A stretch of DNA of 56,177 nucleotides from IMG/VR virus record IMGVR_UViG_3300045988_073633, positions 1 to 56,177 of that record. One strand, written 5' to 3'. The position numbers and the translations under genes are program-made. Shown here piece by piece: positions 1 through 41,575 of this stretch. The DNA is from a virus. The notes beneath the pieces are model-generated. The model did not search any database. It was not told the origin of the DNA and saw nothing but the letters and a program-made list of their open reading frames with translations. Every line of letters starts with the position of its first letter. Positions within the stretch are counted from its first letter, which is position 1.

Positions 1-75
1 CTTTTTTTTTCGATGTATCTAAAATAACTGTCAACTATTTTATTCTGTGCTTCGTATAGTAATATCTCATAGTAC
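1..75. repeat. Terminal overlap, identical to 56103..56177 (circular or permuted assembly; unit length 56,102 bp)
   Basis: 75/75 nt identity read directly at both window ends. Confidence 0.9.
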
Positions 76-12030: not shown

Positions 12031-13250
12031 GCAGAAAAAGCACGTTCAATTATACGTTCTGCTTCTTCTTTGCTTTTATTGTTATAGTAATAAAAAGCTC
12101 TGGTAGTTTTAATATCTGTGTGCCCCATTTGGGATATTGTAATGTTGTCTGGAACACCTGCATCAATAAGATGCGTGCCATAAGTCATTCTGGCTTTATG
12201 AGCTGATCTGCGTTGGATTCCTAGATCATCACATATCCTGTATAATTTATCGGTGAATGCATGGCCATGCATTCTTTTCCCAGACTTACAGAATATATAT
12301 CCATTTTGAGATCCACTTATATTTTTTATTTTTTGTAACAACTCAATCGTTTTTTTGGTTATGATAATATTTCTATTTCCTGCATCTGTTTTCGGAAAGT
12401 CTCTAACTTCAAAAACATATTTTCCATTATTATCTTTATATCGTATCTCAGTCTTTGTAATTTTAATGGAATTTCCATCTATATCATTCCATTCTAAAGA
12501 TGATAACTCTCCTATTCTCATTCCTGTTTGGAACGATAAAAGTACTCCATATAAAAGCAATGATGGTTTTTGATTACATATGTAATCGGCGATCAAGTTT
12601 TCTTCCTCAGAAGTAAAAACTTTTAATCTATCGTCAATATATTTTTTTGTAAATATATTTTTCGATAAATCCAGATCACCCATAAAGCTTGTTATACTTA
12701 TTTTAGTATATCCTTTTTTCTTTCCATACTTAAAAATGCCATTAATCAATGTCCTAAGACCGCTCCAAGCCTTAGATGTAAGATTCATGGAATGAATAGT
12801 TGTTTTTATAAATTCTTCCAGCAAATCTTCTGTAATAAATCTGAATTCAATTTCTGAAATAAGAGTTTTTCGTATATATCTTTCATAATCGGTAGAATAT
12901 CTATCGTATGTTTGTCTTTGAATTTCTCCGTACTTCAGTTTGCTATCAATCCACATGTTGAATACATCCTCTATATAAGGCTCATTTGCCATATTCTTAT
13001 AATAATCAACAATTGCATTCTCAATAGAAGATTCATTTGTACGTTTCAAAAGTTTCCTTCCGGATTTCGTATGCTTATCAGGCAAATATGTATAATATCT
13101 TTCATCCTTCCCCTTCCAAATTTCGTAATTGTGTTGCTCCAAATACCTCTTTCGTTCGTTCATCTCAATTTGTTCTTGTATGTTGTCACGACTGATAATA
13201 CCATTTTCAATAGCGTAATTCAATAATTCTCGATCCGTTAATTCACACAT
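12027..13250 (-). CDS. int: Tyrosine integrase
   Basis: 407 aa. RIGE...HKARMTY...GH...Y catalytic pattern, adjacent to attP. Confidence 0.85.
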   Translation of the reverse strand: MCELTDRELLNYAIENGIISRDNIQEQIEMNERKRYLEQHNYEIWKGKDERYYTYLPDKHTKSGRKLLKRTNESSIENAIVDYYKNMANEPYIEDVFNMWIDSKLKYGEIQRQTYDRYSTDYERYIRKTLISEIEFRFITEDLLEEFIKTTIHSMNLTSKAWSGLRTLINGIFKYGKKKGYTKISITSFMGDLDLSKNIFTKKYIDDRLKVFTSEEENLIADYICNQKPSLLLYGVLLSFQTGMRIGELSSLEWNDIDGNSIKITKTEIRYKDNNGKYVFEVRDFPKTDAGNRNIIITKKTIELLQKIKNISGSQNGYIFCKSGKRMHGHAFTDKLYRICDDLGIQRRSAHKARMTYGTHLIDAGVPDNITISQMGHTDIKTTRAFYYYNNKSKEEAERIIERAFSA

Positions 13251-19580: not shown

Positions 19581-20943
<1,363 letters not shown>

Positions 20944-23495: not shown

Positions 23496-23744
23496 TTAGT
23501 GTTCTCCCATGCTACCAAAATCTTTTAATGGATATTCGTGCTTGTGGTTGCGTGCAAATGTTTTTATAAGACATTTTCCATTCGTTGTTCGAAACTCACA
23601 TTCGCTACACCTAAACACAAGGTCTTCATGCCTTTCTACCTCTTTACAGTTCATACACCAATTCTTTGTAAAAATATCAAGCCCATGTACTGCCTCTGTT
23701 GTATTATCTGAATTTCCACTTGTAAAACTAATCAAAACGGACAT
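23496..23744 (-). CDS. Zinc-ribbon hypothetical protein
   Basis: CMNC...CSEC. Confidence 0.4.
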   Translation of the reverse strand: MSVLISFTSGNSDNTTEAVHGLDIFTKNWCMNCKEVERHEDLVFRCSECEFRTTNGKCLIKTFARNHKHEYPLKDFGSMGEH

Positions 23745-24469
23745 TCATCTCCTTTCCTTAAAATACATTCTTTTCCACGCTCTGCAACATCTACATTTGC
23801 TCCATAAGCAACTTTTTTCATCTTCTCGATAAAACTACCGCTATCAGCATTCTCACTTGATAAATGGCACATTATGACGTTCTGCAAGCTATCTGAATGA
23901 TTTGCTTTAACAAAATCACAAGCTGTGTCAATGGATAAGTGGCCTCTGAATACATGATTGGCTTTGCCTGTGTTATCCCTGTCGATTAAATCCTTGTCAT
24001 AATTCACACCTAAGAGAATGTGGTTTATGTCTCTAAACTTCCACTTGACAACCTCACAATCGGTTATGTAAAGCATTCTTCCCATTTCCTTGTGAGTAAT
24101 CAGAAAGCCATATATCGGACAAGGTGTTCCATCTGCGTTAGTGTGTGTCCATCTATTGTCTGTTGTTGTCAATGGGAAATCTTTAACCTCAAATTCTCCG
24201 TATATTTTTGTGTAAAAATGTGGTTCAAATTTTTCATATGGTGCAAATACAGGTATTCCCATTGAATTAAAATCGTTTAATGACTTGCTATGATCTGAAT
24301 GAACGTGGCTGACTATGCAGCCAACCACATTTCTTATGTTCCAATTCAAGCCTTTTTTAATTTCCTTAATTGGGATTCCGCAATCAAGGATAAGTGTTTC
24401 TCCACTGTCGGAAGTTAAGGTGTAGCAGTTCCCTGTACTTCCTGTTGCAATACATTTAAGTTTCATCAA
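23732..24469 (-). CDS. Metallo-beta-lactamase-fold nuclease (probable partner of RecT)
   Basis: HVHSDH motif, located in the recombination module. Confidence 0.7.
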   Translation of the reverse strand: MMKLKCIATGSTGNCYTLTSDSGETLILDCGIPIKEIKKGLNWNIRNVVGCIVSHVHSDHSKSLNDFNSMGIPVFAPYEKFEPHFYTKIYGEFEVKDFPLTTTDNRWTHTNADGTPCPIYGFLITHKEMGRMLYITDCEVVKWKFRDINHILLGVNYDKDLIDRDNTGKANHVFRGHLSIDTACDFVKANHSDSLQNVIMCHLSSENADSGSFIEKMKKVAYGANVDVAERGKECILRKGDECPF

Positions 24470-25131: not shown

Positions 25132-26040
25132 CTATTCTGCCTGCATAAATGGCGGTAATGTGCTATCTTCTGCCTGTTGCTCGGTTACTTCTGTGGCTGT
25201 ATCTTCGACTACGTCATCAACAATATCGCCCTCAACAAAATCTACGCTGTTAGCATTCTGTTCAATATCGTAATCAACATCAGCCTGCATACGCTCATCA
25301 TAACTAGGCAACTTCTCCTCACTATCGTAATTTCCGTCATAGAAAGAACCATAAGTATTGTTAATCTGCTTTAACAGTCTGTTCTTAACTGTTTTCATAG
25401 CCATCTGGTCTGTGAATTTCTGATGCGTTCCGTTTCCGTTCTCTTTATAGCCATATCCCTGTTTCCAAGCCTGCTTTATCTGTTTGATGTTCATAACCTC
25501 TGTGAGAACACTTCCGTCATCCATAGTGGCTATTGCGTAAGCACCCTTGACCTTATCGTTGTCGATATTCTCAAAGTCCTGCTTATGAGTGACAATACTT
25601 TTCTTGCCATTAACAATTTCATACTCAAATGTATCGCCCTCATAGATAACCTCTGCTGTTATGTCTTTAAGTCCATATCTCCTAGCAATGCAAGTGTTTC
25701 CATACACTGATTTCTGACACTGCAACTTGCCACCATAAGCAACCGGGTAGCACTGCTTCTTCTGCATTGAAAGGCCATTTGTAACCATTTCAACAAGTGC
25801 ATTTTCAATACTTGCCCTTGTGCAACTCTGCAATACTGGCTTCTTGTTCATATCTACTGTTTCCTGTAAAATAAGCATTGCTGACATAAATTCATTTGTG
25901 TAGTTGTAATCTTTAGGAAATGTCAAGCCGAATTTCTCTTTTTGCTTGATTTTCACAACCATTCCCTCTGTAAAGTCCTTTGCTACAAGTTCCCTACTTT
26001 CAGTTTCTTTCTTTTCTGCAACTGCTGTATTCTCTGCCAT
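25132..26040 (-). CDS. recT: RecT-family single-strand annealing protein
   Basis: The CYPVAYGGKLQCQKSVYG...ARRYG core and an acidic C-terminus. Confidence 0.8.
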   Translation of the reverse strand: MAENTAVAEKKETESRELVAKDFTEGMVVKIKQKEKFGLTFPKDYNYTNEFMSAMLILQETVDMNKKPVLQSCTRASIENALVEMVTNGLSMQKKQCYPVAYGGKLQCQKSVYGNTCIARRYGLKDITAEVIYEGDTFEYEIVNGKKSIVTHKQDFENIDNDKVKGAYAIATMDDGSVLTEVMNIKQIKQAWKQGYGYKENGNGTHQKFTDQMAMKTVKNRLLKQINNTYGSFYDGNYDSEEKLPSYDERMQADVDYDIEQNANSVDFVEGDIVDDVVEDTATEVTEQQAEDSTLPPFMQAE

Positions 26041-26042
26041 AA

Positions 26043-26267
26043 TTATTCATCCTCCTTAATACCCAAAATCTTTTTCGCAAGATTCTCAAAATGTTCCATT
26101 GCTTCTTTTTCAATCTCTTCATCAGAAAGAGCAGCTCTTTCTATGCAGCGGTTATAATCTTTTTCACCAAAATGTTTCTTACAATTTCTTAAAATAAAAA
26201 CTAATTCTGCTTCTACTAATGGCTTAGGACCTGCGATTTCTAATTTACCCATATCTGTTTTAATCAT
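26043..26267 (-). CDS. Hypothetical protein
   Basis: ORF track, overlaps the RT stop. Confidence 0.4.
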   Translation of the reverse strand: MIKTDMGKLEIAGPKPLVEAELVFILRNCKKHFGEKDYNRCIERAALSDEEIEKEAMEHFENLAKKILGIKEDE

Positions 26268-27325
26268 AATTTTCTCTCACTTTCTAACAATTTTTTTACA
26301 TATAAATCCATCGAGTAACATAGTTTGATACAATTTCCATGTAACGCATGATTTTTCCATGCATTGTATTTTTCATAGAATTTTTTCTCTGTCATTCTTC
26401 CAGACTTGATAAGTTTCACCCACACCGTAATTTTTTTGCGGATTTTTCTTTTATTTACTCCATTTAACTTCCTTATATACTTTCCATCTTTGGTAACGTA
26501 ATGATGAAAACCTGTAAACAACATTCCGTTCTTGAATGGTATAATCTGTGTTTTACCATTAAGCGACAATCCAAGACTTTGTACGAACTGATTTATGCAA
26601 TCAAGACACCATTTTATATATTCCTTACTTGGTGCTATCAGATAAAAGTCGTCCATATATCTTCCATATAGACTTATCCCTAACTCGCCTGTAATAAAAT
26701 GATCTAAGCCATTTAGCATAAGTAAAGCATAAACCTGTGCCACCTGATTACCGAGTGGCAATCCCAAACCATCTGTACTGTCGATAAATAGGTGATTAAG
26801 CCACTTCGTATAATCATCTGCAAAATAGTAATCAACAATATCTTTCAACACTTCATGATCTATCTGATAGAAAAATTTTGTAATATCACATTTTAGAATC
26901 CAACCATTAAGTCCATGTTCTCTGTAAAATTCAAGCATATGTTCTTTCAAAAAATCAATTCCAAAATGCGTACCTTTTCCTATCTGCCCTGCATAGTTAG
27001 TCTTAATAAACTCATCTGCCAACATTGGATGCAAAATATTGTCGCACAAACAATGTTGAACTACCTTATCTTTGAATGAACACGATTTAATCACTCTTTC
27101 CTTTGGTTCGTAAACCTTAAATTCATTGTACGGATTCATCCGGTATGTCTGATTTTCAAGTTGTTCCTTCAAAATATGTAGCCCTTCAAGATCCATTGTC
27201 TGAAATCTTGCACTGCTGCCATTAAATCCTTTGCCGGCTTTAGCCTTTCTATATGCTTTATACAGATTTTCATAACTGCAAATAATATCTTTATCCAATG
27301 TAAAAGCTCCTTTGTATTTACCCAT
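26264..27325 (-). CDS. DGR-type reverse transcriptase
   Basis: 353 aa. YMDD, LGNQVAQ (DGR-type motif 4) and GKGTHFG motifs. Confidence 0.9.
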   Translation of the reverse strand: MGKYKGAFTLDKDIICSYENLYKAYRKAKAGKGFNGSSARFQTMDLEGLHILKEQLENQTYRMNPYNEFKVYEPKERVIKSCSFKDKVVQHCLCDNILHPMLADEFIKTNYAGQIGKGTHFGIDFLKEHMLEFYREHGLNGWILKCDITKFFYQIDHEVLKDIVDYYFADDYTKWLNHLFIDSTDGLGLPLGNQVAQVYALLMLNGLDHFITGELGISLYGRYMDDFYLIAPSKEYIKWCLDCINQFVQSLGLSLNGKTQIIPFKNGMLFTGFHHYVTKDGKYIRKLNGVNKRKIRKKITVWVKLIKSGRMTEKKFYEKYNAWKNHALHGNCIKLCYSMDLYVKKLLESERKL

Positions 27326-27497
27326 TTAGGAAAGGTCATACACTTTTTTGTATCTTTTACTGATTTCGGCTTATTGCCTACTCTTACTGCCTGTTTGATA
27401 CAGAATGGGCGAACACCGTTGTTGTTATTGCAATTGTTGTTGTTGATATTGCCGGACGGGGCAACAACGGTTTATACAGTGTATAACCTATATGTGT
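27326..27497 (-). ncRNA. DGR template RNA region (TR plus spacer) between avd and RT
   Basis: Non-coding 172 bp containing the TR. Confidence 0.7.
27397..27473 (-). repeat. DGR template repeat (TR)
   Basis: Colinear with both VRs. The coding-sense reading is GNINNNNCNNNNG (AAY codons), with 22 adenines. Confidence 0.9.
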
Positions 27498-27869
27498 TTA
27501 CCTTTCCCTGTCTTTTGTCCTCCAGGCAATAGCCATATGCTTTATATCAGAAACCATCTTTGACCAGTATTCCATGCTTTGCATGTTTATAATGTTCAAC
27601 TTCATTGACAGTTCTATATAAAAAATCAATTCATCACAATTCGTTATGGATTTTGTCTGTAGCTCTGACCTTTCCCGACGATATAACTTCAAATCTGTTC
27701 GGTTTGCTTCGTACAAATATTCGTAGATTTCCATTGCTTTGTTCTGCATCTTATCTACAAGCGAAAATCTGTACTTCTTTGGATATCTATTGCAATTTGA
27801 AGTTATTCGCAATGTATGTTCAGCTAATTCCTTTGCTTTTAGAATTACTTTTAGTTCTGTTTCTGCCAT
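27498..27869 (-). CDS. avd: Avd (accessory variability determinant), four-helix-bundle protein
   Basis: The YPKKYRFSLVDKMQNKAMEIYEYLYEAN motif, basic, located between VP and TR. Met-8 is the likely start. Confidence 0.8.
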   Translation of the reverse strand: MAETELKVILKAKELAEHTLRITSNCNRYPKKYRFSLVDKMQNKAMEIYEYLYEANRTDLKLYRRERSELQTKSITNCDELIFYIELSMKLNIINMQSMEYWSKMVSDIKHMAIAWRTKDRER

Positions 27870-27873
27870 ATAC

Positions 27874-28488
27874 TTATTCCTCTGATTCAAAGATTAAAGA
27901 GGAGAAGATACAAACCGGGCGAACACCGCGGCTGCCATTGCAAAGGCTGAGGCTGAAATCGCCGGACGGGGCAACAACGGCCACAGATGTCTCATAATCG
28001 TTGCATGGTGTACTCCACGGAGTAACAAGCCACCACCAATAATCATCTGTGTTAGGTATAAGGCTTCTATATTTTCGGTATTCATCAACCGTAAGAAGTG
28101 ACACCTTGTCCTCACACTCTCCATATTCAGTCTGTCCGTCAAGTGAAATCAGATTGCGATTGAATGGAATGATATTCTCTTCTCCTATTTCGTCAACAAT
28201 CTTTTCGATAAACTCTGTATCGAGATATTCTCGTAACTGGCTTTTAATCCAATCGTTTGATTCTTTGTCAAACTCCATGTTTTCTTCTAGTTTATCTGCA
28301 AGACACATATATCCTTTTTCAGTAATATTAAGTATCTTCCAAGTGACCCCGGCAATGTCAAAGGTATCTCCAATTCCTAATCCAGATGGTATATTATTAA
28401 TCTTCTTTGAAGATTCAAGTGCTGCAATCTTCTCTTTCAACTCATTAATTTGTTCCTGCAAGCTTTTCATTGTTAATGTTGTACTCAT
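27874..28488 (-). CDS. DGR variable protein 1
   Basis: 204 aa. The C-terminus DYWWWLVTPW...VVAPSGDFSLSLCNGSRGVRPVCIF contains VR1. Confidence 0.85.
   Translation of the reverse strand: MSTTLTMKSLQEQINELKEKIAALESSKKINNIPSGLGIGDTFDIAGVTWKILNITEKGYMCLADKLEENMEFDKESNDWIKSQLREYLDTEFIEKIVDEIGEENIIPFNRNLISLDGQTEYGECEDKVSLLTVDEYRKYRSLIPNTDDYWWWLVTPWSTPCNDYETSVAVVAPSGDFSLSLCNGSRGVRPVCIFSSLIFESEE
27907..27983 (-). repeat. Variable repeat 1 (VR1)
   Basis: 16 differences from the TR within the repeat, all at template adenines. It also has 3 shared non-A differences at the 3' (IMH-like) edge. Confidence 0.9.
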
Positions 28489-28490
28489 AA

Positions 28491-29090
28491 TTATTCTCCT
28501 TTCGATACAAAGATATTAGATTTCAAGATACAAACCGGGCGAACACCGTAGTTGTAATTGCAATTGCGGCTGCTGATAAAGCCGGACGGGGCAACAACGG
28601 CTATTGCATACTTCCAATTTCTACTTTCAGTAGACCAAGGCGTGCAAGTCCACCACCAATCGTTTAGATTCTTATTGGCAATCAAATCATTGTACTTTCT
28701 TGCTTCGTCAAATGTAATAGGTCTGACCTTACAAGTACAAGGTTCAAACTCATGCTGCATATCAACAGAAGTCAAATCAACCGTATGTTCAATGATGTTA
28801 TCTGCTCCCAGTTCATCTTCAATAATAGGCTGTATATCGTTCTCAATAATTTTCTTTAGATTTGACTTGTTATAATCTCTTGTATCTTCATCAAATAAAA
28901 TATCTTCTGCCATAAAATCCTTAGATATTACCTTTGTTGTTCCGTTGCAATGATCAAGCACGATGAAATCATGCTCTCCAACTTTGAATGCATCTCCCGG
29001 ATTCAATACTGATAACTGTACCTTGTTAGCTTTTTCTGCTTCTTCTAACTGCTTGACAAGTTCTCTTGCAATTTCTAATGCTTTGCTCAT
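28491..29090 (-). CDS. DGR variable protein 2 (paralogue of VP1)
   Basis: 199 aa. The C-terminus NDWWWTCTPW...VVAPSGFISSRNCNYNYGVRPVCIL contains VR2. Confidence 0.85.
   Translation of the reverse strand: MSKALEIARELVKQLEEAEKANKVQLSVLNPGDAFKVGEHDFIVLDHCNGTTKVISKDFMAEDILFDEDTRDYNKSNLKKIIENDIQPIIEDELGADNIIEHTVDLTSVDMQHEFEPCTCKVRPITFDEARKYNDLIANKNLNDWWWTCTPWSTESRNWKYAIAVVAPSGFISSRNCNYNYGVRPVCILKSNIFVSKGE
28527..28603 (-). repeat. Variable repeat 2 (VR2)
   Basis: 10 differences from the TR, all at template adenines. Same IMH-like edge as VR1. Confidence 0.9.
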
Positions 29091-29092: not shown

Positions 29093-30988
29093 TTAGCCCT
29101 CCTTACTAATCACTTTCAGTTTCTCATCATCTGTTCTTTTAAGAATAATCAGCTGATTGTCAACATCAGGAATCCTAATACTATCAACAGATTCAGCATC
29201 ATCAATTATGATTGGAATGCTGATCCCAAGTTTTTCCTGAAATGCCATACAAATATCCATCTCTGTAAGCATTCTTGCACCATGGTTAAGATTCCTGTAA
29301 TAAGATTCTCCATTGTGAAGATAATTACAACATTCTTCCAATTCTCCGTTTTTCAACTTCTTTATTAATTCAACATTGCAAAACGATAAATGCTTATTTA
29401 CGTCATCTTCCAACACTTTATTCTTCTTCAAAGAAAATTCTCTCAATAAATCGATTATTCTTTCTTGATCTGCAATTTTTTGCTGTGTTTTTCTTTGTTC
29501 CATTAGAATATGTTCTATTCTCTCATCTATAGCAATATTGTTAGAAGATCGTTGCATTTTAGAATCTATGCTGGAAAGCTCTTGCATGAGATCCTGCTCA
29601 TCTTCTTTAAGAGAAGATCGAACTTTTGTAAGTTCATTTTCCTTTACTTGATTCTGCAGCTCTTCCATTTCTTCTCTTAAAGAAATAACCTCCTCATTAG
29701 AATCTATATCAGCTACATTCCCGATAGATTCTATCTCCTTACTAATTGATATAAGATTAGATTGGAAATCAGACAACCTTTTATCATTTTCGACATTAAG
29801 TTGTTCGATGTTCTTAATTGTCGAAGTTGATTTTTCGATACAGTTCTTTAGTCGAAGTCCTTCTTCCTCAATGCCTTTAAGCCTTTTTTCTTTTGAAGAT
29901 TTCAAAAAATCTTCACTATCGCTTAAAGGTCTGCCACAAGTAGGGCATACATCTGGAATCTTTTCTGCTTTTACATCCATCCACAATTTTGAAAGCCTAT
30001 TTTTCTCCGAACTCATATTTTCGACATCCCCACGAAGTCGAATTACTTCGTTCTTATTTCTCTGTATTGCATCCGAAATATCATATATTTCATTTATGAT
30101 ATCCCCTTTTTTCTTTTCCAGCTCTTTCCGTCTAGCTCTTGCTTTTTCATTTTCTTCATTCTGTAGTTCTGATATTCGAAACTTGATTTCCATGATTCTT
30201 TCAATAGAAGAATCATATTGGCTTAATAAAGCTGATGTCTCAGTCTGTTTCTTTGCATTCTCATCAAGAAGTTTTTTTATCTCATTCTTTCTCAGTTCAA
30301 GTTCTGACACATCAATATCAACCTTCTGCTTCTCTAATTCTTCAATTCTAGGTCTGTATCCGCTAAAATCTGCTTTTAGTTTCTTTAATTCCCGGCTACA
30401 TCTATCTTTCAATTCATTAATCGTTCCATCTTCCAACATAGGCTTTAATTCTGAAAATTCATCGCATTCGCACAATGAAGAATCCTCATGCTCCGAAAAT
30501 GTGCTGTTAAGAATTGATCTCTGATCTGAATAACCACTTCTCAGCAAAGTCATTGCATTAATGCAGTAGGATATGTTGCCTATATTTTCCTGCAAAAACG
30601 ATCCATAATCAGTCGCTTTCTTGAGAATATCGTTGATATAGCATTCCGTAACTGTTCCTGTAATGTCTCCTTTTTTGTTCTTTTTATATTTCAGCACCTT
30701 TTTCAGCACCTTTTTAGATCCATCAATATCAATTTCCATTTCAGCAATGCAATCATCTGAATTAATATCGTTTCCATCTAAATCATGTGGCCTAATTCCT
30801 GTAATTTCCTTGCCGTTCTCATCCTTGCAGTTAAGCAACCACTGTATGATCTTTTTAATTGTTGACTTTCCGGATTCATTAACACCTGTAATCTCAGTTA
30901 CGTTGCTTAAAGTTATATCAATAGTGTTATCACCATAAAACTTAAAGCAATTATCAACTTTAATTCTGCATATTTTCATTATCATCAT
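29093..30988 (-). CDS. SbcC/Rad50-like SMC-family ATPase
   Basis: Walker A GVNESGKST, a long coiled coil with a central CPTCGR zinc-hook-like motif, and Walker B IIIDDAES. Confidence 0.65.
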   Translation of the reverse strand: MMIMKICRIKVDNCFKFYGDNTIDITLSNVTEITGVNESGKSTIKKIIQWLLNCKDENGKEITGIRPHDLDGNDINSDDCIAEMEIDIDGSKKVLKKVLKYKKNKKGDITGTVTECYINDILKKATDYGSFLQENIGNISYCINAMTLLRSGYSDQRSILNSTFSEHEDSSLCECDEFSELKPMLEDGTINELKDRCSRELKKLKADFSGYRPRIEELEKQKVDIDVSELELRKNEIKKLLDENAKKQTETSALLSQYDSSIERIMEIKFRISELQNEENEKARARRKELEKKKGDIINEIYDISDAIQRNKNEVIRLRGDVENMSSEKNRLSKLWMDVKAEKIPDVCPTCGRPLSDSEDFLKSSKEKRLKGIEEEGLRLKNCIEKSTSTIKNIEQLNVENDKRLSDFQSNLISISKEIESIGNVADIDSNEEVISLREEMEELQNQVKENELTKVRSSLKEDEQDLMQELSSIDSKMQRSSNNIAIDERIEHILMEQRKTQQKIADQERIIDLLREFSLKKNKVLEDDVNKHLSFCNVELIKKLKNGELEECCNYLHNGESYYRNLNHGARMLTEMDICMAFQEKLGISIPIIIDDAESVDSIRIPDVDNQLIILKRTDDEKLKVISKEG

Positions 30989-31505
30989 CGTTCACCTCCT
31001 CGATTCTGTAGCACGAAACCTCATATGCTTCTCCATGCTTATTTCCATTATTGTAGATTCTTCTCTGAAATCTACCTTCTATTTCTATTCTTGTTCCACA
31101 TTTCATATCATTCAATATGTGTGCGTTAGAACCCCATGCAATAAAAGGTATGTAATTCCTTCCATCTGTAAACATCATTGAGTTGCATATAAGGATATTG
31201 TTAACCGTGGATCGCTTCATGTATGGCTTCATTACAACAATCCCATTCAAAAGTGCTTTGTTCGTTGTTGGAATAATTGACTCAGACATAATATGCAGGT
31301 CTTCAACATCCACATATACAATTAGATGCTTTTTGTAATACATTGACTTAATCGTTCCTTTAATATGTACAATGTCTCCAATTTCTGCACAATTACCGCA
31401 TGTCTGGCATAGAATTATGTCCGAATTTCCGCTTGTCCTCATAACTTCAACGCTATACAGCGTTTCATTGATTCCAACAACTTCTCCTGCTATCTCGATA
31501 TTCAT
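30960..31505 (-). CDS. OB-fold SSB-like protein
   Basis: The C-terminal half (NYIPFIAWGSNAHIL...IEIEGRFQRRIY) resembles SSB/PriB-type OB folds. Confidence 0.45.
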   Translation of the reverse strand: MNIEIAGEVVGINETLYSVEVMRTSGNSDIILCQTCGNCAEIGDIVHIKGTIKSMYYKKHLIVYVDVEDLHIMSESIIPTTNKALLNGIVVMKPYMKRSTVNNILICNSMMFTDGRNYIPFIAWGSNAHILNDMKCGTRIEIEGRFQRRIYNNGNKHGEAYEVSCYRIEEVNDDDNENMQN

Positions 31506-33587: not shown

Positions 33588-33794
33588 TTAAGCAAAAAAA
33601 TAATCGCCATATTCTGCTAGTTGAATATTAAGTAGTCTACTCCATTCTTCAATATCGTGCTGTGAAAATTCTGTCTTACAATTAAGTTTTCTTGATACCG
33701 AAACCATAGAAATACCCAGTTTACTAGCAAAAGCACTCTGACTGCCGAATACTTCGACTATACGTCCTTTTAACTTGTTATATGTATATGGCAT
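33588..33794 (-). CDS. cro: Cro-like XRE-family HTH regulator
   Basis: 68 aa HTH (SQSAFASKLGISMVSVSRKL), divergent from the repressor gene. Confidence 0.7.
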   Translation of the reverse strand: MPYTYNKLKGRIVEVFGSQSAFASKLGISMVSVSRKLNCKTEFSQHDIEEWSRLLNIQLAEYGDYFFA

Positions 33795-33825: not shown

Positions 33826-33914
33826 AGTTTAACACCGTTCAACTCATATGTCAACACAAAAGTTTAATTTTGTTCAACTTTTGTGTTGAAAGTTTAACAT
33901 CATTGTGTTAAAAT
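33826..33914. promoter_or_regulatory. Lysogeny switch: back-to-back promoters with operator repeats
   Basis: Minus strand: TTGACA(33854..33849), 17 nt, TAAACT. Plus strand: TTGAAA(33886), 17 nt, TAAAAT. Operators AGTTTAAyN3GTTyAACT at 33826 and 33861, with a variant at 33891 and a further copy at 33567. A 13-bp inverted repeat TCAACACAAAAGT brackets the middle operator. Confidence 0.6.
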
Positions 33915-33946
33915 ACAGTTATCACAAAAGAAAGGAGAATATACAT

Positions 33947-34294
33947 ATGAAATGCGAAGTCACAGCAAAAAGGTTAAGAAAAGCACTTAATGAATGTGGT
34001 ATGAAGCCACAAGAATTAGCTGATAAAACAGGCATTAGTAAGTCATCAATAAGTCAATACCTTAATGGCTCACACGCTCCGTCTAATATCAGTAGTGGTA
34101 AAATGGGAAAAGTGTTAAATGTAGAACCTTTATGGCTAATGGGATTTGATGTTGAACAACGTAAGACTTTCAATGTTGAACAGGGAGATAAAGATTTTGA
34201 AATATTAGATAAGATTTCTATGTTAGACGAAAGAGATAAACAGATTGTTCTTGATATGATTGAATCTATGATTTCCAGCAAAAATAAGAAGTAG
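33947..34294 (+). CDS. CI-like XRE-family repressor
   Basis: Met-15 of the tracked ORF follows SD AAAGGAG. HTH QELADKTGISKSSISQYLNG. Confidence 0.7.
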   Translation: MKCEVTAKRLRKALNECGMKPQELADKTGISKSSISQYLNGSHAPSNISSGKMGKVLNVEPLWLMGFDVEQRKTFNVEQGDKDFEILDKISMLDERDKQIVLDMIESMISSKNKK

Positions 34295-37165: not shown

Positions 37166-38149
37166 TTAAGCGACCTTTTTATGGTCGATTTTTACATTGT
37201 CTTCATCAACACTACAATATAGCATTGTTGTATCTAAGCTCGAATGTCCTAGTATTGCCTGTAAGTGTTGTATTTTCATTCCCTTATTAAGGGCATTAGT
37301 AGCAAAGGTTCTACGGAACCTATGCGGATGCACATTGTTTATTCCTGTTATTTCAGATATCTTTTTTAACATTTTTTCTATTGATTGTTTGCTTAATCTT
37401 TCTCCAAATCTGTTGACAAAAAGTGATTCGTTACAATCTGTTCGTTCTTTTAAGTATTCTCCAATATAGTACAATGCCTTATCAGAAATATATACTTTCC
37501 TTTCTTTGCTTCCTTTTCCAAACACAATCGCTTCACCACGAATCATATCTATATCGTTCCAATTAAGATTAACAATTTCACTTACCCTGCACCCGGTTGT
37601 AAGCATAAATTCAATAATAGCTCTGTCTCTTTTATTCCATGTGGAATTTTTAATTCGTTCAATTTCATTGTCATTAAATGGTTTTCTGAAAACCTTTTCT
37701 GTTTTTATCTTCTTGATCCGTAGCATTGGATTTTTCTCGATATATTCTTCTCTTGTAAGCCATGCAAAAAAAGACGATAGATTTCTCCTTTTGTTGTCTA
37801 TTGTGCTTTTAGACACCTTTCTATTTTGCTGATACATTGCCAAGTGATATCGTATATCATTTGTAACCATGTCTTCTACTCTTTTGTCCACATCTAAAAA
37901 TAGAAGATTAATTGCTAATTCATATTGATCTAATGTTTGCTCCGACTTACCTTCTAATCTTAAAGATGCTATAAACTTCTTTTTCAATCTTTCATTGCTG
38001 TTATCATAAAATCCAACTTCATGTGATTTCTGCTCTACATGATATGATTGAAATAACACTGTTAGTGCATCTCCTAATTTTTCCATCTGCTCCTTGCTCA
38101 ATTCTTCTGACATCATTAGCAATAATTCACTTCTTAATCTTTCCTCCAT
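37166..38149 (-). CDS. XerC/XerD-like tyrosine recombinase (second recombinase)
   Basis: RVSEI...HPHRFRRTFAT...LGHSSLDTTMLY catalytic pattern. Lies between the tail fibre and the endolysin. Confidence 0.8.
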   Translation of the reverse strand: MEERLRSELLLMMSEELSKEQMEKLGDALTVLFQSYHVEQKSHEVGFYDNSNERLKKKFIASLRLEGKSEQTLDQYELAINLLFLDVDKRVEDMVTNDIRYHLAMYQQNRKVSKSTIDNKRRNLSSFFAWLTREEYIEKNPMLRIKKIKTEKVFRKPFNDNEIERIKNSTWNKRDRAIIEFMLTTGCRVSEIVNLNWNDIDMIRGEAIVFGKGSKERKVYISDKALYYIGEYLKERTDCNESLFVNRFGERLSKQSIEKMLKKISEITGINNVHPHRFRRTFATNALNKGMKIQHLQAILGHSSLDTTMLYCSVDEDNVKIDHKKVA

Positions 38150-38247: not shown

Positions 38248-39609
38248 TCATTTAATCCGAATAGCGATAATGCTCGCCTCATTCTGCACAAAGTTCATCG
38301 GAGATTCAGCGTTCTGGTATACCCAGAGGGATACTGTTGTAACTGTTGTAAAGGTCGCAACTGTAACTAAGGTTCGAGATCCATATGGCCGATTGACTAA
38401 GATATCATCTGCATTGTCACCTTTAGATAATCGAGCATACTGAATATCTTTCTGATCAGAAATCAGACCAATTAAAAGATACATACCAGGCTGAATATTG
38501 TATGCAATACACACAGCCGTAAATGATGCAAGTGGAACTGGAACCGTTCCGCCTAAGTTGGTCTGACTAACCTCTCCGAGCTTTGAATAGTTTGAGTTTA
38601 GTGTAGATATAGCACCAGTAATTGTACCATCTCCTAAGGTAGATATGTCCGTACTTCCAATATCTTCTTTTAATCCGCTAAGGCTAACAGGTGAACTTGT
38701 TCCGCTTTTTGCTACCAAATCTCCAGCAGTTGAGTATCCATTAACTTTCTCATATATGTAATCATCAATCATTTTTGCAATTTTGCCCTTGAACTCAGAC
38801 CATTCAGATCCAGATACTAAGCTGCTTAACGCTTCTGGAACCTCAAAATCCGTTCCTACTGACATTGCACCAGTAGAAGACACTTTGACATCATTTGTTG
38901 CCATGACTTTTCCGGGAGTTGTTGTTGTCGCTATTGACATTCCGGCCGCAGATTTAGCTTGTTCCATATAGTATTTAGCATTATCTACAGCTTCTCCGTC
39001 TCTTAATCCGCTTAGACCATTAGCATATGACATTGACATTTTGGAGTAGTATTCTGACTGAGTTTCACTGCTTTTTGCATTATCCGCATAGTTTTTGACT
39101 TTTCCAGTTTCAACCTTAATGTTTGCAAGATATCCTGTCTCCAGCATTGATTCTGTAATAGAACCATTTTTGACACTTGCAGATATACTTCCGTCTTCCG
39201 CTACACTGAATGTTATAGTTGAAGATTCCTTGAATTCATACTGTGTAACAAGTGCCGACATATCAACATACTGATATGTTCCATCTTCTAATGTAATAAC
39301 TAATCTCTGATTAACGGAATCGTAACTAAAGTTAACAGCAATCTTCTGTAGATTAGTATTGTATGTCTGAGATGATCCATTCTTATAATTAATCGTCAAT
39401 ACGCCGGTACTCTCATTAAGAGTTACAGACAATACCATCTCATTTACTTCCGATATATCAGCTTTGATTGTATCTAGTGTTATTACTCTATCATCTATCC
39501 CATCTAATGCAGAGTCACTTTTATTTAAGTTGTTTTGATCGATTGGAGTTGCTGTTGATGGTCTGTTGATCCAATTAATTCTATTAAATAACTTTTTCCA
39601 ATTTTGCAT
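38248..39609 (-). CDS. Tail fibre / receptor-binding protein
   Basis: Met-12 follows SD GGAGG. The N-terminus NWINRPSTATPIDQNNLNKSDSALDGID is typical of Firmicute phage fibres. Last tail gene. Confidence 0.65.
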   Translation of the reverse strand: MQNWKKLFNRINWINRPSTATPIDQNNLNKSDSALDGIDDRVITLDTIKADISEVNEMVLSVTLNESTGVLTINYKNGSSQTYNTNLQKIAVNFSYDSVNQRLVITLEDGTYQYVDMSALVTQYEFKESSTITFSVAEDGSISASVKNGSITESMLETGYLANIKVETGKVKNYADNAKSSETQSEYYSKMSMSYANGLSGLRDGEAVDNAKYYMEQAKSAAGMSIATTTTPGKVMATNDVKVSSTGAMSVGTDFEVPEALSSLVSGSEWSEFKGKIAKMIDDYIYEKVNGYSTAGDLVAKSGTSSPVSLSGLKEDIGSTDISTLGDGTITGAISTLNSNYSKLGEVSQTNLGGTVPVPLASFTAVCIAYNIQPGMYLLIGLISDQKDIQYARLSKGDNADDILVNRPYGSRTLVTVATFTTVTTVSLWVYQNAESPMNFVQNEASIIAIRIK

Positions 39610-39610
39610 T

Positions 39611-41575
39611 TTATTTTTCCTCCAATTTCTTAATTCTATCATTCAACTGTTGTATTGTAGCAACCAGATCTGGTATTATCTCTTCGTATCTAAGGCTTTT
39701 AACGCCGTCATTCTCTACATATACACCATAATCTTCTTTCATCACTTTTTTAACTTGTTGCGCAATAAACCCATGATGATATCTATTAGATGTTCCGTTT
39801 TTAAGCCTATATTTGTAAGGTATAAGTGAACATATGAAATCTGAACTATCTTCTTTATTTAACCTTTCAAGGTCTTTCTTGACATGAAAATCTGATTTAC
39901 TTACTGTTCCATCTGGAGTATATACAGTTCCGTTGAACGTAGCACCGTTTTCAAAAATGTTAACCGCTCCAATTAATGCGGTTCTAGTTGTTCCTTCATC
40001 ATAAAAATATATACTTCCTTGATCCTGAGATACAGATACTTTAGCTCCGTTTCTTCCCATAAATGTACATACTGGAAAAGCTAATACTACAGATCCAATT
40101 CCATCATCTCTTACAATCATGAACTGATTTGTATTTTCTATCGCTGTTAACTTAATGCTGCCACCAGTAATCTTCATATCCGAGGCTTCAACAGCACCAT
40201 TTTTATTCAGTTTGAACTTGTCGCTCTCAATAGAAACTCTGTTAGCCTTAATTGTTATATCTCCAGCTTCTTGACTTATTTCAGATGAGACATCTCCTTT
40301 TGTTACTTTAGTGGCTATGTTTGCTTCAGTCTGAGTTATTTTTGTACTCATTTCATCTTCTACCGAAGTCGCTCTGGAAACTTCACTTTCTAGTCCGCTT
40401 TCAGTTGCTTCAACTCTGATTTTAAGTCTTCCATTTTCTGAGTTAAGTTTTTTTAATTGACTTGTAATGCTGTTCGGATCAGTTGATAAGTATTCCGTAC
40501 CTTCTGCTTTTATTTCGTCTGTTAATGCCTGTACTCCTGTTAGTGTCCTCTCGAATATATATGTTTCTACATATTCATCACCAACCTTAAAACTTATCAT
40601 ATCTCCACATTCAAGATATGGCTGGCCAACCATTGTTAATTTTGATGGCCGATAATAAAGTTTATCAATGTTACTTGCAATTTGATTAATAGTGTTTTTA
40701 AGTTGTTCTTCTTCTAATGACGCAAGAATATAATTGTCTGTAAACGTGTATGGATTATCAAGATTATTAGTCTCATATCTTGTTCCATCAGAAAACAACG
40801 CTATAACACCATCAATAGGATATGTTATATATTCTTCACATTCCGGGTAGTCTTTTAATATGCGTGCCTCTGATATATCCATATCGCTATCTGAATGTGA
40901 AGGATATAATGTTTCAGAAGGATATAATGTTTCAGAAGGATACAATGATGATGCTTTTATTTTTACATATTTTAATTTACCGTTTCTATCAATCTGTGGC
41001 CAGCAACAATTTAATTCGCATAGTCCAGACATAATATCTGTTCCACTTATTCCGCTTGAATAATCCAGTTTAGGATCAAATGATAAACTATCATACAATA
41101 AATTTGTTTCTATCTGATCTATTCCTACGTATTGGCATAATCCATCTCTTAATTCTTTGACAGTTGTTGGAAATTCAACAGATTTATACCACTCTGACAC
41201 ATCAGAATTAAGATTAATAAGTTTATCGTATGCTACGATTTCTCTATACGGCTTTCCTATTTGTTTTTTGGCTGAATAGACATTAAAAAATCCAAGTGAT
41301 AACTCTTCGTTGTCTACTATCAATACCGGATTGATTTCAGCTCCAACTATATCTTTTTCAACCCCGGTAACTGTAACAGTAAAGCAAGAAGCATTAATGA
41401 GACCGAATTTTAATTGTTCTTCGTTCATCATGATTTCTTCTAACTTCATGCTCTCAGATACAATGTTTTTATTGTTTAATTCCTTGTGGTACCCATCCGA
41501 GAATCGAATTACTAGATTCTTATTAACACTATCTTTTGTATATAGTTTTTTTAATTTTTCGCTTACATTAATCAT
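39611..41575 (-). CDS. Tail-associated protein (Tal-like) with a C-terminal S74-type intramolecular chaperone domain
   Basis: 654 aa. The C-terminus YRLKNG.SNRYHHGFIAQQV...LRYEEIIP..V..IQQL. Confidence 0.6.
   Translation of the reverse strand: MINVSEKLKKLYTKDSVNKNLVIRFSDGYHKELNNKNIVSESMKLEEIMMNEEQLKFGLINASCFTVTVTGVEKDIVGAEINPVLIVDNEELSLGFFNVYSAKKQIGKPYREIVAYDKLINLNSDVSEWYKSVEFPTTVKELRDGLCQYVGIDQIETNLLYDSLSFDPKLDYSSGISGTDIMSGLCELNCCWPQIDRNGKLKYVKIKASSLYPSETLYPSETLYPSHSDSDMDISEARILKDYPECEEYITYPIDGVIALFSDGTRYETNNLDNPYTFTDNYILASLEEEQLKNTINQIASNIDKLYYRPSKLTMVGQPYLECGDMISFKVGDEYVETYIFERTLTGVQALTDEIKAEGTEYLSTDPNSITSQLKKLNSENGRLKIRVEATESGLESEVSRATSVEDEMSTKITQTEANIATKVTKGDVSSEISQEAGDITIKANRVSIESDKFKLNKNGAVEASDMKITGGSIKLTAIENTNQFMIVRDDGIGSVVLAFPVCTFMGRNGAKVSVSQDQGSIYFYDEGTTRTALIGAVNIFENGATFNGTVYTPDGTVSKSDFHVKKDLERLNKEDSSDFICSLIPYKYRLKNGTSNRYHHGFIAQQVKKVMKEDYGVYVENDGVKSLRYEEIIPDLVATIQQLNDRIKKLEEK
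40899..40947. repeat. 18-bp in-frame tandem repeat (2.7 copies) inside the tail protein gene
   Basis: GAAGGATATAATGTTTCA twice plus a partial third copy. Encodes SETLYP repeats. Confidence 0.85.

What the first reader, a model, noticed from the sequence alone, without database searches (positions are those of the whole stretch)
27874..29090. The DGR targets are two tandem small non-tail paralogues inside the early recombination operon
In characterised phage DGRs the diversified gene is a tail fibre or receptor binder at the end of the tail module. Here the two targets are 204 and 199 aa. Each has a short N-terminal coiled coil, no signal peptide and no TM helix. Their C-termini carry an aromatic WWW..TPW ... 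GVRPVC(I/L) motif, reminiscent of the WWLRSP...VRPA type of ligand-binding domain common in gut Firmicutes (a family name such as DUF6273 is only my recollection). They sit between an SbcC-like ATPase and RecT on the early strand, roughly 9 kb from the fibre gene. The two VRs differ from each other at most variable codons, so both copies appear to be independently diversified from one template. A hypervariable binder expressed with early genes could be an intracellular binding protein, for example against variable host defence or host factors, or an unconventional virion or adhesion accessory. Either would be unusual for a phage DGR.
Basis: inference. Interest (0 to 1): 0.8.

Follow-up and report, generated by a model that had tools for sequence, protein, structure and literature searches.

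The report
Hypervariable lectin-like pair in phage early operon
A gut-bacterial virus uses a mutagenic reverse-transcriptase system to keep rewriting two small binding proteins encoded among its early DNA-recombination genes rather than its tail genes, which suggests (not proves) that these proteins work inside the infected cell, not on the virus particle.

Summary
The window is a complete circular 56.1-kb temperate siphovirus genome, probably of Lachnospiraceae. It carries one DGR on the minus strand: SbcC/Rad50-like ATPase, T2 (199 aa), T1 (204 aa), Avd, TR, RT, orf74, RecT.

Both targets are DUF6273 (C-type-lectin-like) proteins with an N-terminal heptad helix and no signal peptide or TM helix. 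All TR/VR core mismatches fall on TR adenines. There is no third VR.

Small single-domain DUF6273 DGR targets are published (nd4/nd12 tgt2, Lelie, Toutatis), and a non-structural phage DGR target was proposed for Quimbyvirus.

What I add:
- The T2-T1 pair is present in 80/80 related viral contigs, directly after the ATPase in 70/76.
- Avd-TR-RT is optional (45/80). RT-less relatives keep the pair, some with identical "frozen" VRs.
- Homologues in four other lineages (FP_Brigit, Toutatis/Lelie, nd4, a wider Clostridia clade) also lie in early replication or recombination regions, never in tail modules.

Best reading, confidence about 0.5: early-expressed, cytoplasmic, probably oligomeric adaptive binders used in phage-host conflict. 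The published receptor-binder reading is not excluded. I rate it a new variant of a known kind, of moderate interest.

The parts
33588..33794 (-). Cro-like HTH gene, first gene of the early minus-strand operon. A promoter-like site lies at 33854-33826, and the divergent cI-like gene at 33905-34294 (+).
   Evidence: phrog_4583/2967; promoter scan
30960..31505 (-). SSB/OB-fold-like protein, upstream in the operon.
   Evidence: PF00436, weak, 1.2e-4; synteny in relatives
29093..30988 (-). SbcC/Rad50/SMC-like ATPase (631 aa). It ends 2 nt before the T2 start codon.
   Evidence: phrog_77 2.8e-26; NCBIfam Rad50, weak; PADLOC LmuB 1e-16
28491..29090 (-). T2, DGR target 2 (199 aa): N-terminal helix plus DUF6273 domain. 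AGGAGG Shine-Dalgarno site upstream.
28530..28604 (-). VR2. Its 8 core mismatches to the TR are all at TR adenines.
27874..28488 (-). T1, DGR target 1 (204 aa): heptad helix 7-27 plus DUF6273 domain. AAGGAG Shine-Dalgarno site upstream.
27910..27984 (-). VR1. Its 13 core mismatches to the TR are all at TR adenines. The 3' end GGTGTTCGCCCGGTTTGTATC (IMH-like) is identical to that of VR2.
27498..27869 (-). Avd accessory protein (123 aa, counted from the ATG at 27869).
   Evidence: phrog_3206 3.8e-22; NF033474 5.5e-12, below the curated cut-off
27400..27474 (-). Template repeat, with 10 AAY codons plus ATC. Its 3' end GGTGTTCGCCCATTCTGTATC (IMH*-like) differs from both VRs at 3 positions.
26264..27325 (-). 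DGR-type reverse transcriptase (353 aa).
   Evidence: phrog_1423 5.8e-100; PF00078; 48% identity to the nd12 RT and 30.6% to BPP-1 Brt
26043..26267 (-). 74-aa ORF overlapping the RT stop codon. No family match; present in a subset of relatives.
25132..26040 (-). RecT single-strand annealing protein.
   Evidence: PF03837 8e-36; phrog_148
23732..24469 (-). MBL-fold metal-dependent hydrolase, the usual third member of the ATPase-SSAP-hydrolase module.
   Evidence: phrog_392 3e-59; Listeria phage B054 gp49-gp51 comparison

Best explanation
Shown:
- A complete, active-type DGR (Avd, TR, RT) sits in the early rightward operon of a temperate Lachnospiraceae-type siphovirus.
- It rewrites 11 codons (10 AAY plus ATC) near the C-terminus of two tandem paralogous proteins, T2 and T1.
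- Each protein is a roughly 25-residue heptad helix followed by one DUF6273 (divergent C-type-lectin-like) domain. The variable codons map to a beta-strand and the loop after it.
- Both VRs carry the same 3' IMH-like end, which differs from the TR's. One TR RNA and cDNA can therefore home into either gene independently.
- The T2-T1 pair, not the RT, is the conserved unit. It occupies a variable accessory slot between the SbcC-like ATPase and the annealing protein, and it persists when Avd-TR-RT is lost.

Inferred:
- The genes are translationally packed into the cro-proximal operon upstream of the SSB, replication and DNA-modification genes. The proteins lack a signal peptide, a TM helix and any virion-anchoring domain.
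- Unrelated phages place their homologues in early replication or recombination regions too.
- From this I infer that T1 and T2 are made early and act in the cytoplasm, probably as coiled-coil oligomers or a T1/T2 hetero-oligomer.
- I infer that they are adaptive binders of a variable intracellular ligand, most plausibly a host defence or DNA-metabolism factor met at the start of infection.
- On this view the DGR is an optional accelerator that lets the phage population re-tune that binding surface.
For: DGR anatomy and adenine specificity:
-.
- Only two VRs exist in the genome.

Ongoing diversification:
- In 53 T1-like and 47 T2-like natural homologues, the highest column entropies fall on the AAY codon positions of both proteins.

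Operon context:
- Gaps between genes are 2-4 nt, and both targets have Shine-Dalgarno sites.
- No minus-strand terminator-like site lies between cro and the cassette.
- Downstream come SSB, Mom-like, methyltransferase, DnaD-like and helicase-loader genes.

Clade synteny (80 IMG/VR loci):
- All 80 have at least 2 tandem paralogues.
- 70 of 76 have the ATPase immediately upstream.
- 45 have Avd plus RT, and about 33 lack them.
- RT-less contigs share identical VR peptides, whereas every RT-plus VR recovered by the regex is unique (the regex missed many loci).
- The Lachnospira intestinalis prophage keeps T2-T1-Avd but has lost TR and RT.

The slot is variable:
- Dulem virus 39 (TerL 85% identical) has three small unrelated ORFs there.
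- Listeria phage B054 has ATPase, SSAP and hydrolase contiguous.

Cross-lineage pattern:
- FP_Brigit gp06 lies two genes after the cro-like gene and just before exo-exo-RecT. It matches Brigit's TR 41 kb away, with all internal mismatches at TR adenines (two further non-A mismatches lie at the 3' IMH-like end).
- Toutatis gp24 and Lelie orf58 lie among methyltransferase, regulator and replication-initiator genes.
- nd4 tgt2 lies before PolIII-alpha-like, SSB and DnaC genes.
- Across 134 neighbour genes of 18 bacterial-genome loci (14 of them distant homologues), the commonest Pfam families are DnaC-like IstB/AAA (9), SSB, ParB, HNH and MT-A70. No capsid or tail family is in the top 25.

Protein features:
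- No hydrophobic segment.
- AF2 model with pLDDT 85.6.
- Best structural match is the DUF6273 N-terminal domain of the T. ramosa IgA peptidase, 9qa6 (E 1e-6). Weak C-type-lectin hits follow, including collectin neck-plus-CRD fragments.
Against: - There are no expression, localisation or virion-proteome data for any member of this family.
- Every experimentally characterised phage DGR target is a receptor binder.
- Elsewhere DUF6273 is an extracellular or virion-associated domain. Examples are the N-terminal domain of a secreted, sortase-anchored IgA peptidase (PMC12402451), the tentaclin/Hoc-like proteins, and a tail-fibre-fused target in phage Pioen (PMC11792537).
- In nd4, nd12, Toutatis, Lelie and Brigit, the same TR also diversifies a tentaclin. 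This argues that both targets may see similar, extracellular ligands. The authors of PMC10743442 favour an Mtd-like role for the small target.
- On this circular genome the early operon runs co-directionally into the late genes, so read-through or later expression cannot be excluded.
- No intracellular ligand is identified.
Confidence: 0.5

Rival explanations
1. T1 and T2 are virion-associated receptor-binding or adhesion accessories (Mtd-like, the 'tgt2' reading in the literature) that merely happen to be encoded away from the tail module. The N-terminal helix would dock them, as trimers, onto a fibre or the capsid. The DGR would then serve host-range or mucus-adherence switching.
For: - The C-lectin-like fold with a C-terminal VR matches Mtd-type targets.
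- The helix-plus-domain layout resembles trimeric collectin neck-plus-CRD fragments (weak hits).
- DUF6273 occurs in tail-fibre-fused and Hoc-like virion proteins (PMC11792537, PMC10743442; phrog_10993 cross-hit).
- In several phages one TR serves both a tentaclin and a small target (PMC10743442).
Against: - T1 and T2 have no beta-prism, beta-sandwich or Ig anchor domain.
- The genes are never next to tail or capsid genes in any lineage sampled.
- They are tightly packed into the cro-proximal operon.
- The phage already has a fibre-like gene without a VR.
Confidence: 0.25
2. T1 and T2 are soluble lectin-like proteins that act outside the producing cell. They would be released at lysis or in vesicles, or expressed from the prophage as a lysogenic-conversion factor. 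They would bind bacterial or host glycans, as proposed for the Mushuviridae tentaclin.
For: - The Mushuviridae preprint (10.64898/2026.05.08.723808) reports a DUF6273 DGR target expressed in lysogens and present in the secretome without particles.
- DUF6273 is the N-terminal domain of a secreted IgA peptidase (PMC12402451).
Against: - No signal peptide.
- The genes are on the lytic-direction operon downstream of cro and the antirepressor, with no promoter or terminator of their own detected.
- Brigit gp06 is likewise on the cro side of the switch.
Confidence: 0.12
3. The position reflects the DGR mechanism rather than target function. The cassette would sit beside the ATPase, SSAP and SSB so that the annealing protein helps integrate the mutagenised cDNA, a natural analogue of retron-plus-RecT recombineering.
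For: - In 45/80 relatives the RT is immediately followed by an SSAP.
- The step that integrates DGR cDNA is not understood (my own knowledge).
Against: - The conserved unit is T2-T1, not the RT. About 33 RT-less relatives keep the pair in the same slot.
- In Brigit, Toutatis and nd4, the RT and TR lie 10-41 kb from the early-region target and next to tail or Hoc-like genes.
- The SSAP family is swapped freely next to the cassette.
Confidence: 0.08

Closest known systems
Small DUF6273 'target2' proteins of gut phages nd4 and nd12 (Baykov et al. 2023, PMC10743442), and the small targets of Faecalibacterium phages Lelie, CP11 and Toutatis (PMC11792537; bioRxiv 10.1101/2024.10.15.618418)
   Same: - A single C-lectin-like DUF6273 domain flanked by a short helix, with a C-terminal VR.
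- 30-35% identity to T1.
- Encoded outside the structural module, in early or replication regions.
- Kept in relatives that lack the DGR.
   Different: - There, the small target is a second, remote target beside a tentaclin, and its helix is C-terminal.
- Here there is no tentaclin or structural target at all.
- Here the target is a tandem paralogous pair adjacent to Avd-TR-RT, with N-terminal helices, fixed between the SbcC-like ATPase and the SSAP.
- The published papers interpret the small target as an Mtd-like receptor binder. In the passages I read, they do not comment on its early-region position.
Quimbyvirus second DGR target (Benler et al. 2021, PMC8008677)
   Same: A phage DGR target with a C-lectin domain, distal to the structural genes, argued from its neighbourhood to be non-structural and involved in phage-host conflict.
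   Different: - It is a Bacteroides phage with a different target family.
- Its context is a defence or counter-defence island (nuclease, methyltransferases, tRNA ligase) on the opposite strand.
- It also has a structural target.
Bordetella phage BPP-1 Mtd/Avd/TR/Brt
   Same: - The same cassette logic: target, Avd, TR, RT, with adenine mutagenesis of AAY codons.
- A C-lectin-type variable domain at the C-terminus.
- The RT is 30.6% identical to Brt over 89% of its length.
   Different: - Mtd is 381 aa, with beta-prism and beta-sandwich domains that attach it to tail fibres, and it is encoded at the end of the tail module.
- T1 and T2 have neither the domains nor the position.
Tentaclins / Hoc-like DUF6273 targets, including the Mushuviridae tentaclin
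   Same: The same variable domain family, and the same TR-sharing principle for two targets.
   Different: - Tentaclins carry 1-4 Ig-like domains with a C-terminal anchor motif.
- Their VR is near the N-terminus.
- T1 and T2 have no Ig domain.
ATPase-SSAP-MBL hydrolase recombination modules of Firmicutes siphoviruses (e.g. Listeria phage B054 gp49-gp51)
   Same: The flanking genes here form the same module.
   Different: In B054 the three genes are contiguous. Here the ATPase-SSAP junction holds T2-T1, with or without the DGR. In Dulem virus 39 it holds other small ORFs.

Membership tests
Diversity-generating retroelement (DGR) | Reverse transcriptase of the DGR clade | tested here: met
   phrog_1423 5.8e-100. 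tblastn finds 48% identity to the nd12 DGR RT, 38-40% to the Brigit, Toutatis and nd4 RTs, and 30.6% to BPP-1 Brt. YMDD is present. The motif reads LGNQVAQ where I recall a conserved SQ in DGR RTs (sequence; the comparison rests on my own knowledge).
Diversity-generating retroelement (DGR) | TR/VR repeat pair whose differences are confined to TR adenines | tested here: met
   13/13 (VR1) and 8/8 (VR2) core mismatches are at TR adenines; p = 2e-9 and 2e-5.
Diversity-generating retroelement (DGR) | Accessory protein (Avd) adjacent to the TR | tested here: met
   phrog_3206 3.8e-22. NF033474 scores 5.5e-12 but below the curated cut-off. The Pfam bAvd hit is weak.
Diversity-generating retroelement (DGR) | VR at the 3' end of the target ORF, with an IMH that differs from the TR's IMH* | tested here: met
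   Both VRs end about 30 nt before their stop codons. Both VRs read GGTGTTCGCCCGGTTTGTATC where the TR reads ...CCCATTCTGTATC. Function of the element is not testable here.
Diversity-generating retroelement (DGR) | Evidence of ongoing mutagenic homing | tested here: met
   At population level, entropy peaks on the AAY positions in both paralogue groups. Every RT-plus VR recovered by the regex is unique, while some RT-less VRs are identical across contigs. Homing was not measured within one sample.
DUF6273 (PF19789) / C-type-lectin-like variable domain | Pfam profile match above the gathering score | tested here: met
   T1 scores 38.8 bits and T2 28.9 bits against a cut-off of 23.5.
DUF6273 (PF19789) / C-type-lectin-like variable domain | C-lectin-like fold with the variable residues exposed on one surface | tested here: inconclusive
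   AF2 model: pLDDT 85.6. Top PDB match is the 9qa6 DUF6273 N-terminal domain (E 1e-6, TM 0.62). Canonical C-type lectins match only weakly (probability 0.35 or less). BFVD returns DUF6273 proteins, with DUF1566 weaker. The VR maps to strand 178-182 plus a loop. Exposure was not computed because no coordinates were available. Surface hairpins are reported for homologues in PMC10743442.
Mtd-type tail-fibre-tip receptor-binding protein | N-terminal beta-prism and beta-sandwich domains that attach the trimer to the fibre | tested here: not met
   Only a roughly 25-residue helix precedes the domain. Mtd does not appear among the PDB matches listed.
Mtd-type tail-fibre-tip receptor-binding protein | Encoded in or at the end of the tail module | tested here: not met
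   The pair lies 10.5 kb from the fibre-like gene, across the lysis, integrase and immunity genes. The same holds in 80 related loci.
Mtd-type tail-fibre-tip receptor-binding protein | Physical presence on virions | not testable with these tools
   Needs virion proteomics or immuno-EM.
Tentaclin | N-terminal C-lectin domain followed by 1-4 Ig-like domains with a C-terminal anchor motif | tested here: not met
   The proteins are 199 and 204 aa with no Ig or Fn3 hit. The VR is C-terminal.
Small single-domain DUF6273 DGR target ('tgt2' type, PMC10743442) | One globular C-lectin-like domain flanked by a short alpha-helix, with the VR at the 3' end | tested here: met
   The helix is N-terminal here and C-terminal in nd4, Toutatis and Brigit.
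Lamassu defence system (considered for the ATPase plus the two downstream genes) | LmuB SMC-like ATPase together with an LmuA effector and LmuC | tested here: not met
   The ATPase hits an LmuB model (1e-16). T1 and T2 match no Lamassu component (T2 no PADLOC hit at all; T1 only a marginal DrmB hit, E 0.005). The ATPase scores higher to phrog_77 and sits in a canonical ATPase-SSAP-hydrolase module.

The most novel reading that the evidence does not exclude
Small helix-plus-DUF6273 proteins are a widespread family of early-expressed, intracellular binders. DGRs reprogramme them, making them in effect a phage-encoded 'antibody-like' counter-defence or host-takeover module. They sit in early replication and recombination operons of many Clostridia phages. 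The tandem T2/T1 pair of this Lachnospiraceae clade would be a hetero-oligomeric version whose only DGR function is to re-tune an intracellular interaction.
Probability: 0.3. Interest if true: 0.85.

Novelty: new variant of a known kind. Interest (0 to 1): 0.58.

Why it matters
DGRs are very common in human-gut phages, and their benefit is almost always explained as tail-fibre switching of host range. Here the DGR of an abundant phage clade has no structural target at all. The clade is large: thousands of 90%-identity protein clusters, and 193 clusters at 50% identity with E of 1e-30 or better.

The DGR's two targets are conserved residents of the early recombination operon. Homologues in at least four other phage lineages are placed the same way. 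If these proteins act inside the cell, targeted hypermutation would be part of the phage's early conflict with host defences or DNA-metabolism factors. That would be a new role for DGRs in viruses, and a source of naturally evolvable intracellular binders.

The case is directly testable. A cultured host carries a related prophage (Lachnospira intestinalis CLA-AA-H89B), although that prophage has lost TR and RT. Cultured Faecalibacterium phages (Brigit, Lelie, Toutatis) carry homologues.

Tried and rejected
- Megablast of the 8-kb locus against INPHARED phages found no match, so no described close relative exists. The nearest by TerL is Dulem virus 39, which lacks T1 and T2.
- The first AlphaFold run used a shallow alignment (T1- and T2-like sequences only). 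It gave pLDDT 67.6, with the VR below 50, and its Foldseek hits were meaningless. I discarded it. The second run added three more subfamilies and reached 85.6.
I repeated it with A3.
- I looked for a third VR in structural genes and found none.
- I considered that the ATPase, T2 and T1 form a Lamassu-like defence system. I rejected this (and the membership table).
- I considered that the cassette sits by RecT for mechanistic reasons. I judged this unlikely, because the pair rather than the RT is the anchored unit.
- I checked Roseburia phage Shimadzu, which has two VRs, one in a protein of unknown function. It did not appear among the tblastn hits of T1, and its paper gives no localisation data.
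- My ad hoc gene caller mis-stranded some matches. The Pfam neighbour profile therefore counts families only, not per-locus architecture.
- Chance repeats as an explanation are rejected by the shuffles and by the adenine specificity.
Full report
**1. What is in the sequence**

The window's first 75 nt recur at 56103-56177. It is therefore a circular, complete phage genome of about 56.1 kb. Almost all genes are on the minus strand.

Reading the minus strand from the immunity switch, the order is as follows.
- A cro-like gene (33588-33794) faces a divergent cI-like gene (33905-34294, +), with promoter-like sites between them.
- Next come a Bro-N/ORF6C antirepressor, a cell-wall hydrolase and an SSB-like OB-fold protein.
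- Then comes a 631-aa SbcC/Rad50-like ATPase (29093-30988).
- T2 (28491-29090) and T1 (27874-28488) follow.
- Avd (27498-27869), the TR (27400-27474), the RT (26264-27325) and a 74-aa ORF come next.
- RecT (25132-26040), two small ORFs and an MBL-fold hydrolase complete the block.

Further downstream lie SSB, PAPS-reductase-like, Mom-like, methyltransferase, DnaD-like and helicase-loader genes.

The operon then wraps into the terminase, capsid, tape-measure and fibre-like (39611-41575) genes. An integrase and an endolysin follow.

Gaps are 2 nt (ATPase to T2), 2 nt (T2 to T1) and 4 nt (T1 to Avd). RT and orf74 overlap, and 2 nt separate orf74 from RecT. T2 and T1 each have a canonical Shine-Dalgarno site. 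No minus-strand terminator-like site was found between cro and 21 kb.

**2. The DGR is real**

The TR and two VRs share a 59-nt pattern that never occurred in 100 shuffles. There are exactly three copies in the genome, so no structural gene carries a VR.

In the 64-nt core, every mismatch lies at a TR adenine: 13 for VR1 and 8 for VR2 (hypergeometric p 2e-9 and 2e-5).

The TR encodes AAT ATC AAC AAC AAC AAT TGC AAT AAC AAC AAC. That gives 11 mutable codons, and the two VRs differ at 8 of them.

Both VRs end in GGTGTTCGCCCGGTTTGTATC, whereas the TR has GGTGTTCGCCCATTCTGTATC. This is the usual IMH/IMH* asymmetry.

The RT belongs with DGR RTs: phrog_1423 at 5.8e-100, 48% identity to the nd12 RT and 30.6% to Brt. 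Avd matches phrog_3206 and, below the curated cut-off, NF033474.

**3. The targets**

Both hit phrog_9958.

With a diverse alignment, AlphaFold gave pLDDT 85.6 and pTM 0.77 for T1.
- Residues 7-27 form a helix whose hydrophobic residues (10, 14, 17, 21, 24) follow heptad spacing.
- An alpha/beta domain follows.
- The VR (residues 177-187) forms strand 178-182 plus the following loop, next to strand 168-172.

The best solved-structure match is the DUF6273 N-terminal domain of the Thomasclavelia ramosa IgA peptidase (9qa6; Foldseek E 1e-6, TM 0.62). The same entry is found by sequence profile at E 2.5e-7.

Canonical C-type lectins follow, but only weakly. They include collectin neck-plus-CRD fragments that mirror the helix-plus-domain layout.

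BFVD returns DUF6273 proteins of gut-phage MAGs, and more weakly DUF1566.

Neither protein has a hydrophobic segment. Both are acidic.

**4. Diversification is ongoing in nature**

T1 has 3,837 homologous 90% clusters and T2 has 5,043. Most are singletons of 70-89% identity.

In both paralogue groups the columns of highest entropy are exactly the AAY positions: 177, 179-182 and 184-187 in T1, and 171, 173-176 and 178-181 in T2.

**5. The pair is the conserved unit and the DGR is optional**

I examined 80 related IMG/VR loci.
- All carry at least two tandem paralogues, and two carry three.
- 70 of the 76 loci with enough upstream sequence have the ATPase immediately upstream.
- 45 have Avd plus RT about 0.55 kb after T1.
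- About 33 lack them. There an annealing protein follows T1 within about 60-150 nt.

That annealing protein belongs to different families in different relatives: RecT of 302 aa, a 246-aa type, a 354-366-aa type, and a 252-aa type in L004. The RecT, 246-aa and 354-366-aa types share an acidic ...STLPPFMQ(A)E tail; the 252-aa type is known only, where its sequence was not shown.

Every RT-plus VR recovered by the regex is unique. Several RT-less contigs share identical VR peptides, for example SGDFSYYSYDSFNGIRPVC in four loci. The regex used there missed many loci.

The prophage of the isolate Lachnospira intestinalis CLA-AA-H89B keeps T2-T1-Avd but has lost TR and RT.

Genome hits name Lachnospira, Roseburia, Agathobacter, Acetatifactor, Faecalimonas and Tyzzerella as hosts of close relatives.

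**6. The slot**

Listeria phage B054 shows the canonical contiguous module: SbcC-like ATPase, Bet-like SSAP, metal-dependent hydrolase.

Dulem virus 39 has the closest TerL (85% identity). Between its SMC-like ATPase and RecT it has three small unrelated ORFs, and it has no T1 or T2.

The ATPase-SSAP junction is therefore an accessory slot. In this clade it is occupied by T2-T1, with or without Avd-TR-RT.

**7. The same placement in unrelated phages**

T1's distant homologues (30-35% identity) also lie in early regions.
- **FP_Brigit gp06** lies two genes after the cro-like gene and immediately before exonuclease-exonuclease-RecT. I found that it matches Brigit's TR, which sits 41 kb away beside the tail-fibre, Avd, RT and Hoc-like genes. 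All internal mismatches are at TR adenines; two further non-A mismatches lie at the 3' IMH-like end. It is therefore a remote DGR target in the earliest operon.
- **Toutatis gp24 and Lelie orf58** lie among methyltransferase, prohibitin, regulator, replication-initiator and Q-like genes.
- **nd4 tgt2** precedes PolIII-alpha-like, SSB and DnaC genes.

I also scanned 134 genes flanking homologues in 18 bacterial-genome loci (14 distant homologues, 4 closer relatives).
- The most frequent Pfam families were DnaC-like IstB/AAA (9), SSB, ParB, HNH nucleases and MT-A70.
- RVT_1 and Avd each appeared in only 2.
- No capsid or tail family was in the top 25.

At 50% clustering the family has 2,293 representatives (193 at E of 1e-30 or better). 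Most are 170-270 aa.

**8. Comparison with the literature**

DUF6273 as a C-lectin-like DGR target domain, including small single-domain targets flanked by short helices, is already published:
- PMC10743442;
- PMC11792537;
- bioRxiv 10.1101/2024.10.15.618418, which also notes that targets persist where the DGR is absent.

Those papers read the small target as an Mtd-like receptor binder or leave it open.

A non-structural phage DGR target was proposed for Quimbyvirus (PMC8008677). A lysogen-expressed, secreted tentaclin was reported for Mushuviridae (bioRxiv 10.64898/2026.05.08.723808). Roux et al. (PMC8144416) classed viral targets only as 'structural' or 'unknown'.

So the family and the general idea are known. 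The following is not described in what I could read:
- a DGR with only early-operon targets;
- the tandem pair fixed in the ATPase-SSAP slot;
- the recurrence of early-region placement across lineages.

**9. Interpretation**

Shown: the anatomy, the adenine mutagenesis signature, natural diversification, the fold family, the synteny and its conservation.

Inferred: early expression, cytoplasmic location, oligomerisation through the helix, and a role as adaptive binders of a variable intracellular ligand. I put about 0.5 on this.

Rivals and their weights:
- the published virion or receptor-binder reading, about 0.25;
- a released or lysogenic-conversion lectin, about 0.12;
- a mechanistic link between the DGR and the annealing protein, about 0.08.

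None can be settled without expression, virion-proteome or interaction data.

Noticed in passing
window 1-75 and 56103-56177: The first 75 nt are repeated exactly at the end of the window. The contig is therefore a circular, complete genome of about 56,102 bp, and the early operon runs co-directionally into the terminase and structural genes.
   Followed up: yes
L010:3948-4559 (FP_Brigit gp06) and L121:3403-3489 (Brigit TR): FP_Brigit gp06 is annotated as a hypothetical protein. It lies between the cro-like/regulator genes and exo-exo-RecT. It carries a VR that matches Brigit's TR 41 kb away, with all internal mismatches at TR adenines (two non-A mismatches lie at the 3' IMH-like end). The same TR also matches the Hoc-like gp60. 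I could not tell whether this remote target has been reported.
   Followed up: partly
L017, L020, L023, L025, L030 (just after the T1 homologue); window 25132-26040: The annealing-protein gene next to the pair is swapped between at least three unrelated-looking families (246 aa, 302-aa RecT, 354-366 aa) that share the same acidic C-terminal tail ...E(D/G)STLPPFMQ(A)E. L004 has a fourth, 252-aa type whose sequence I did not see. This suggests module shuffling with a conserved partner-binding tip.
   Followed up: partly
L110, L112, L116, L117 homologues; proteins P0241-P0360: Distant family members have their helix at the C-terminus. In 51 of 120 hits it is followed by an acidic tail ending in an aromatic or hydrophobic residue (...EEDDF, ...EDDNDF, ...DESEIW). 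This is reminiscent of the SSB C-terminal tip and may hint at an intracellular partner.
   Followed up: partly
L092:9386-10978 (Lachnospira intestinalis CLA-AA-H89B): A cultured isolate carries a related prophage with T2-T1-Avd followed directly by RecT. Both VRs are present, but there is no TR and no RT. This is a decayed DGR in a tractable host.
   Followed up: partly
window 29093-30988: The SbcC-like ATPase also matches a PADLOC LmuB (Lamassu) model at 1e-16, and AriA and JetC models more weakly. No LmuA or LmuC partner is present, so I read this as general SMC/Rad50 similarity.
   Followed up: partly
window 37166-38149 and 12027-13250; 441-854: There are two tyrosine-integrase-like genes. 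One (327 aa) sits between the tail-module 464-aa gene (38248-39642) and the endolysin. The other (407 aa) sits in the replication region. An RDF-like gene lies just before the packaging genes.
   Followed up: no
window 19581-20318 and 20236-20943: Two overlapping ORFs both match the PAPS-reductase-like phrog_424, over consecutive parts of the profile. This may be a split or frameshifted gene.
   Followed up: no
window 38248-39642: The 464-aa gene right after the fibre-like gene matches a PHROG labelled 'kinase' (phrog_17196, 2e-45), which is odd for a tail-module position. It had no PADLOC or NCBIfam hit.
   Followed up: no
proteins P0361, P0366, P0396, P0417, P0422; P0367: Some family representatives are 355-411 aa with two matched stretches, apparently fused tandem pairs. 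One 6,979-aa protein has 24 partial matches to the N-terminal half of the domain.
   Followed up: no
L008:8854-9393, L023: Some relatives carry an extra ORF in the slot: a 179-aa ORF ahead of T2 in L008 (its family was not checked), and a third VR-bearing paralogue in L023. The array therefore seems able to expand.
   Followed up: no
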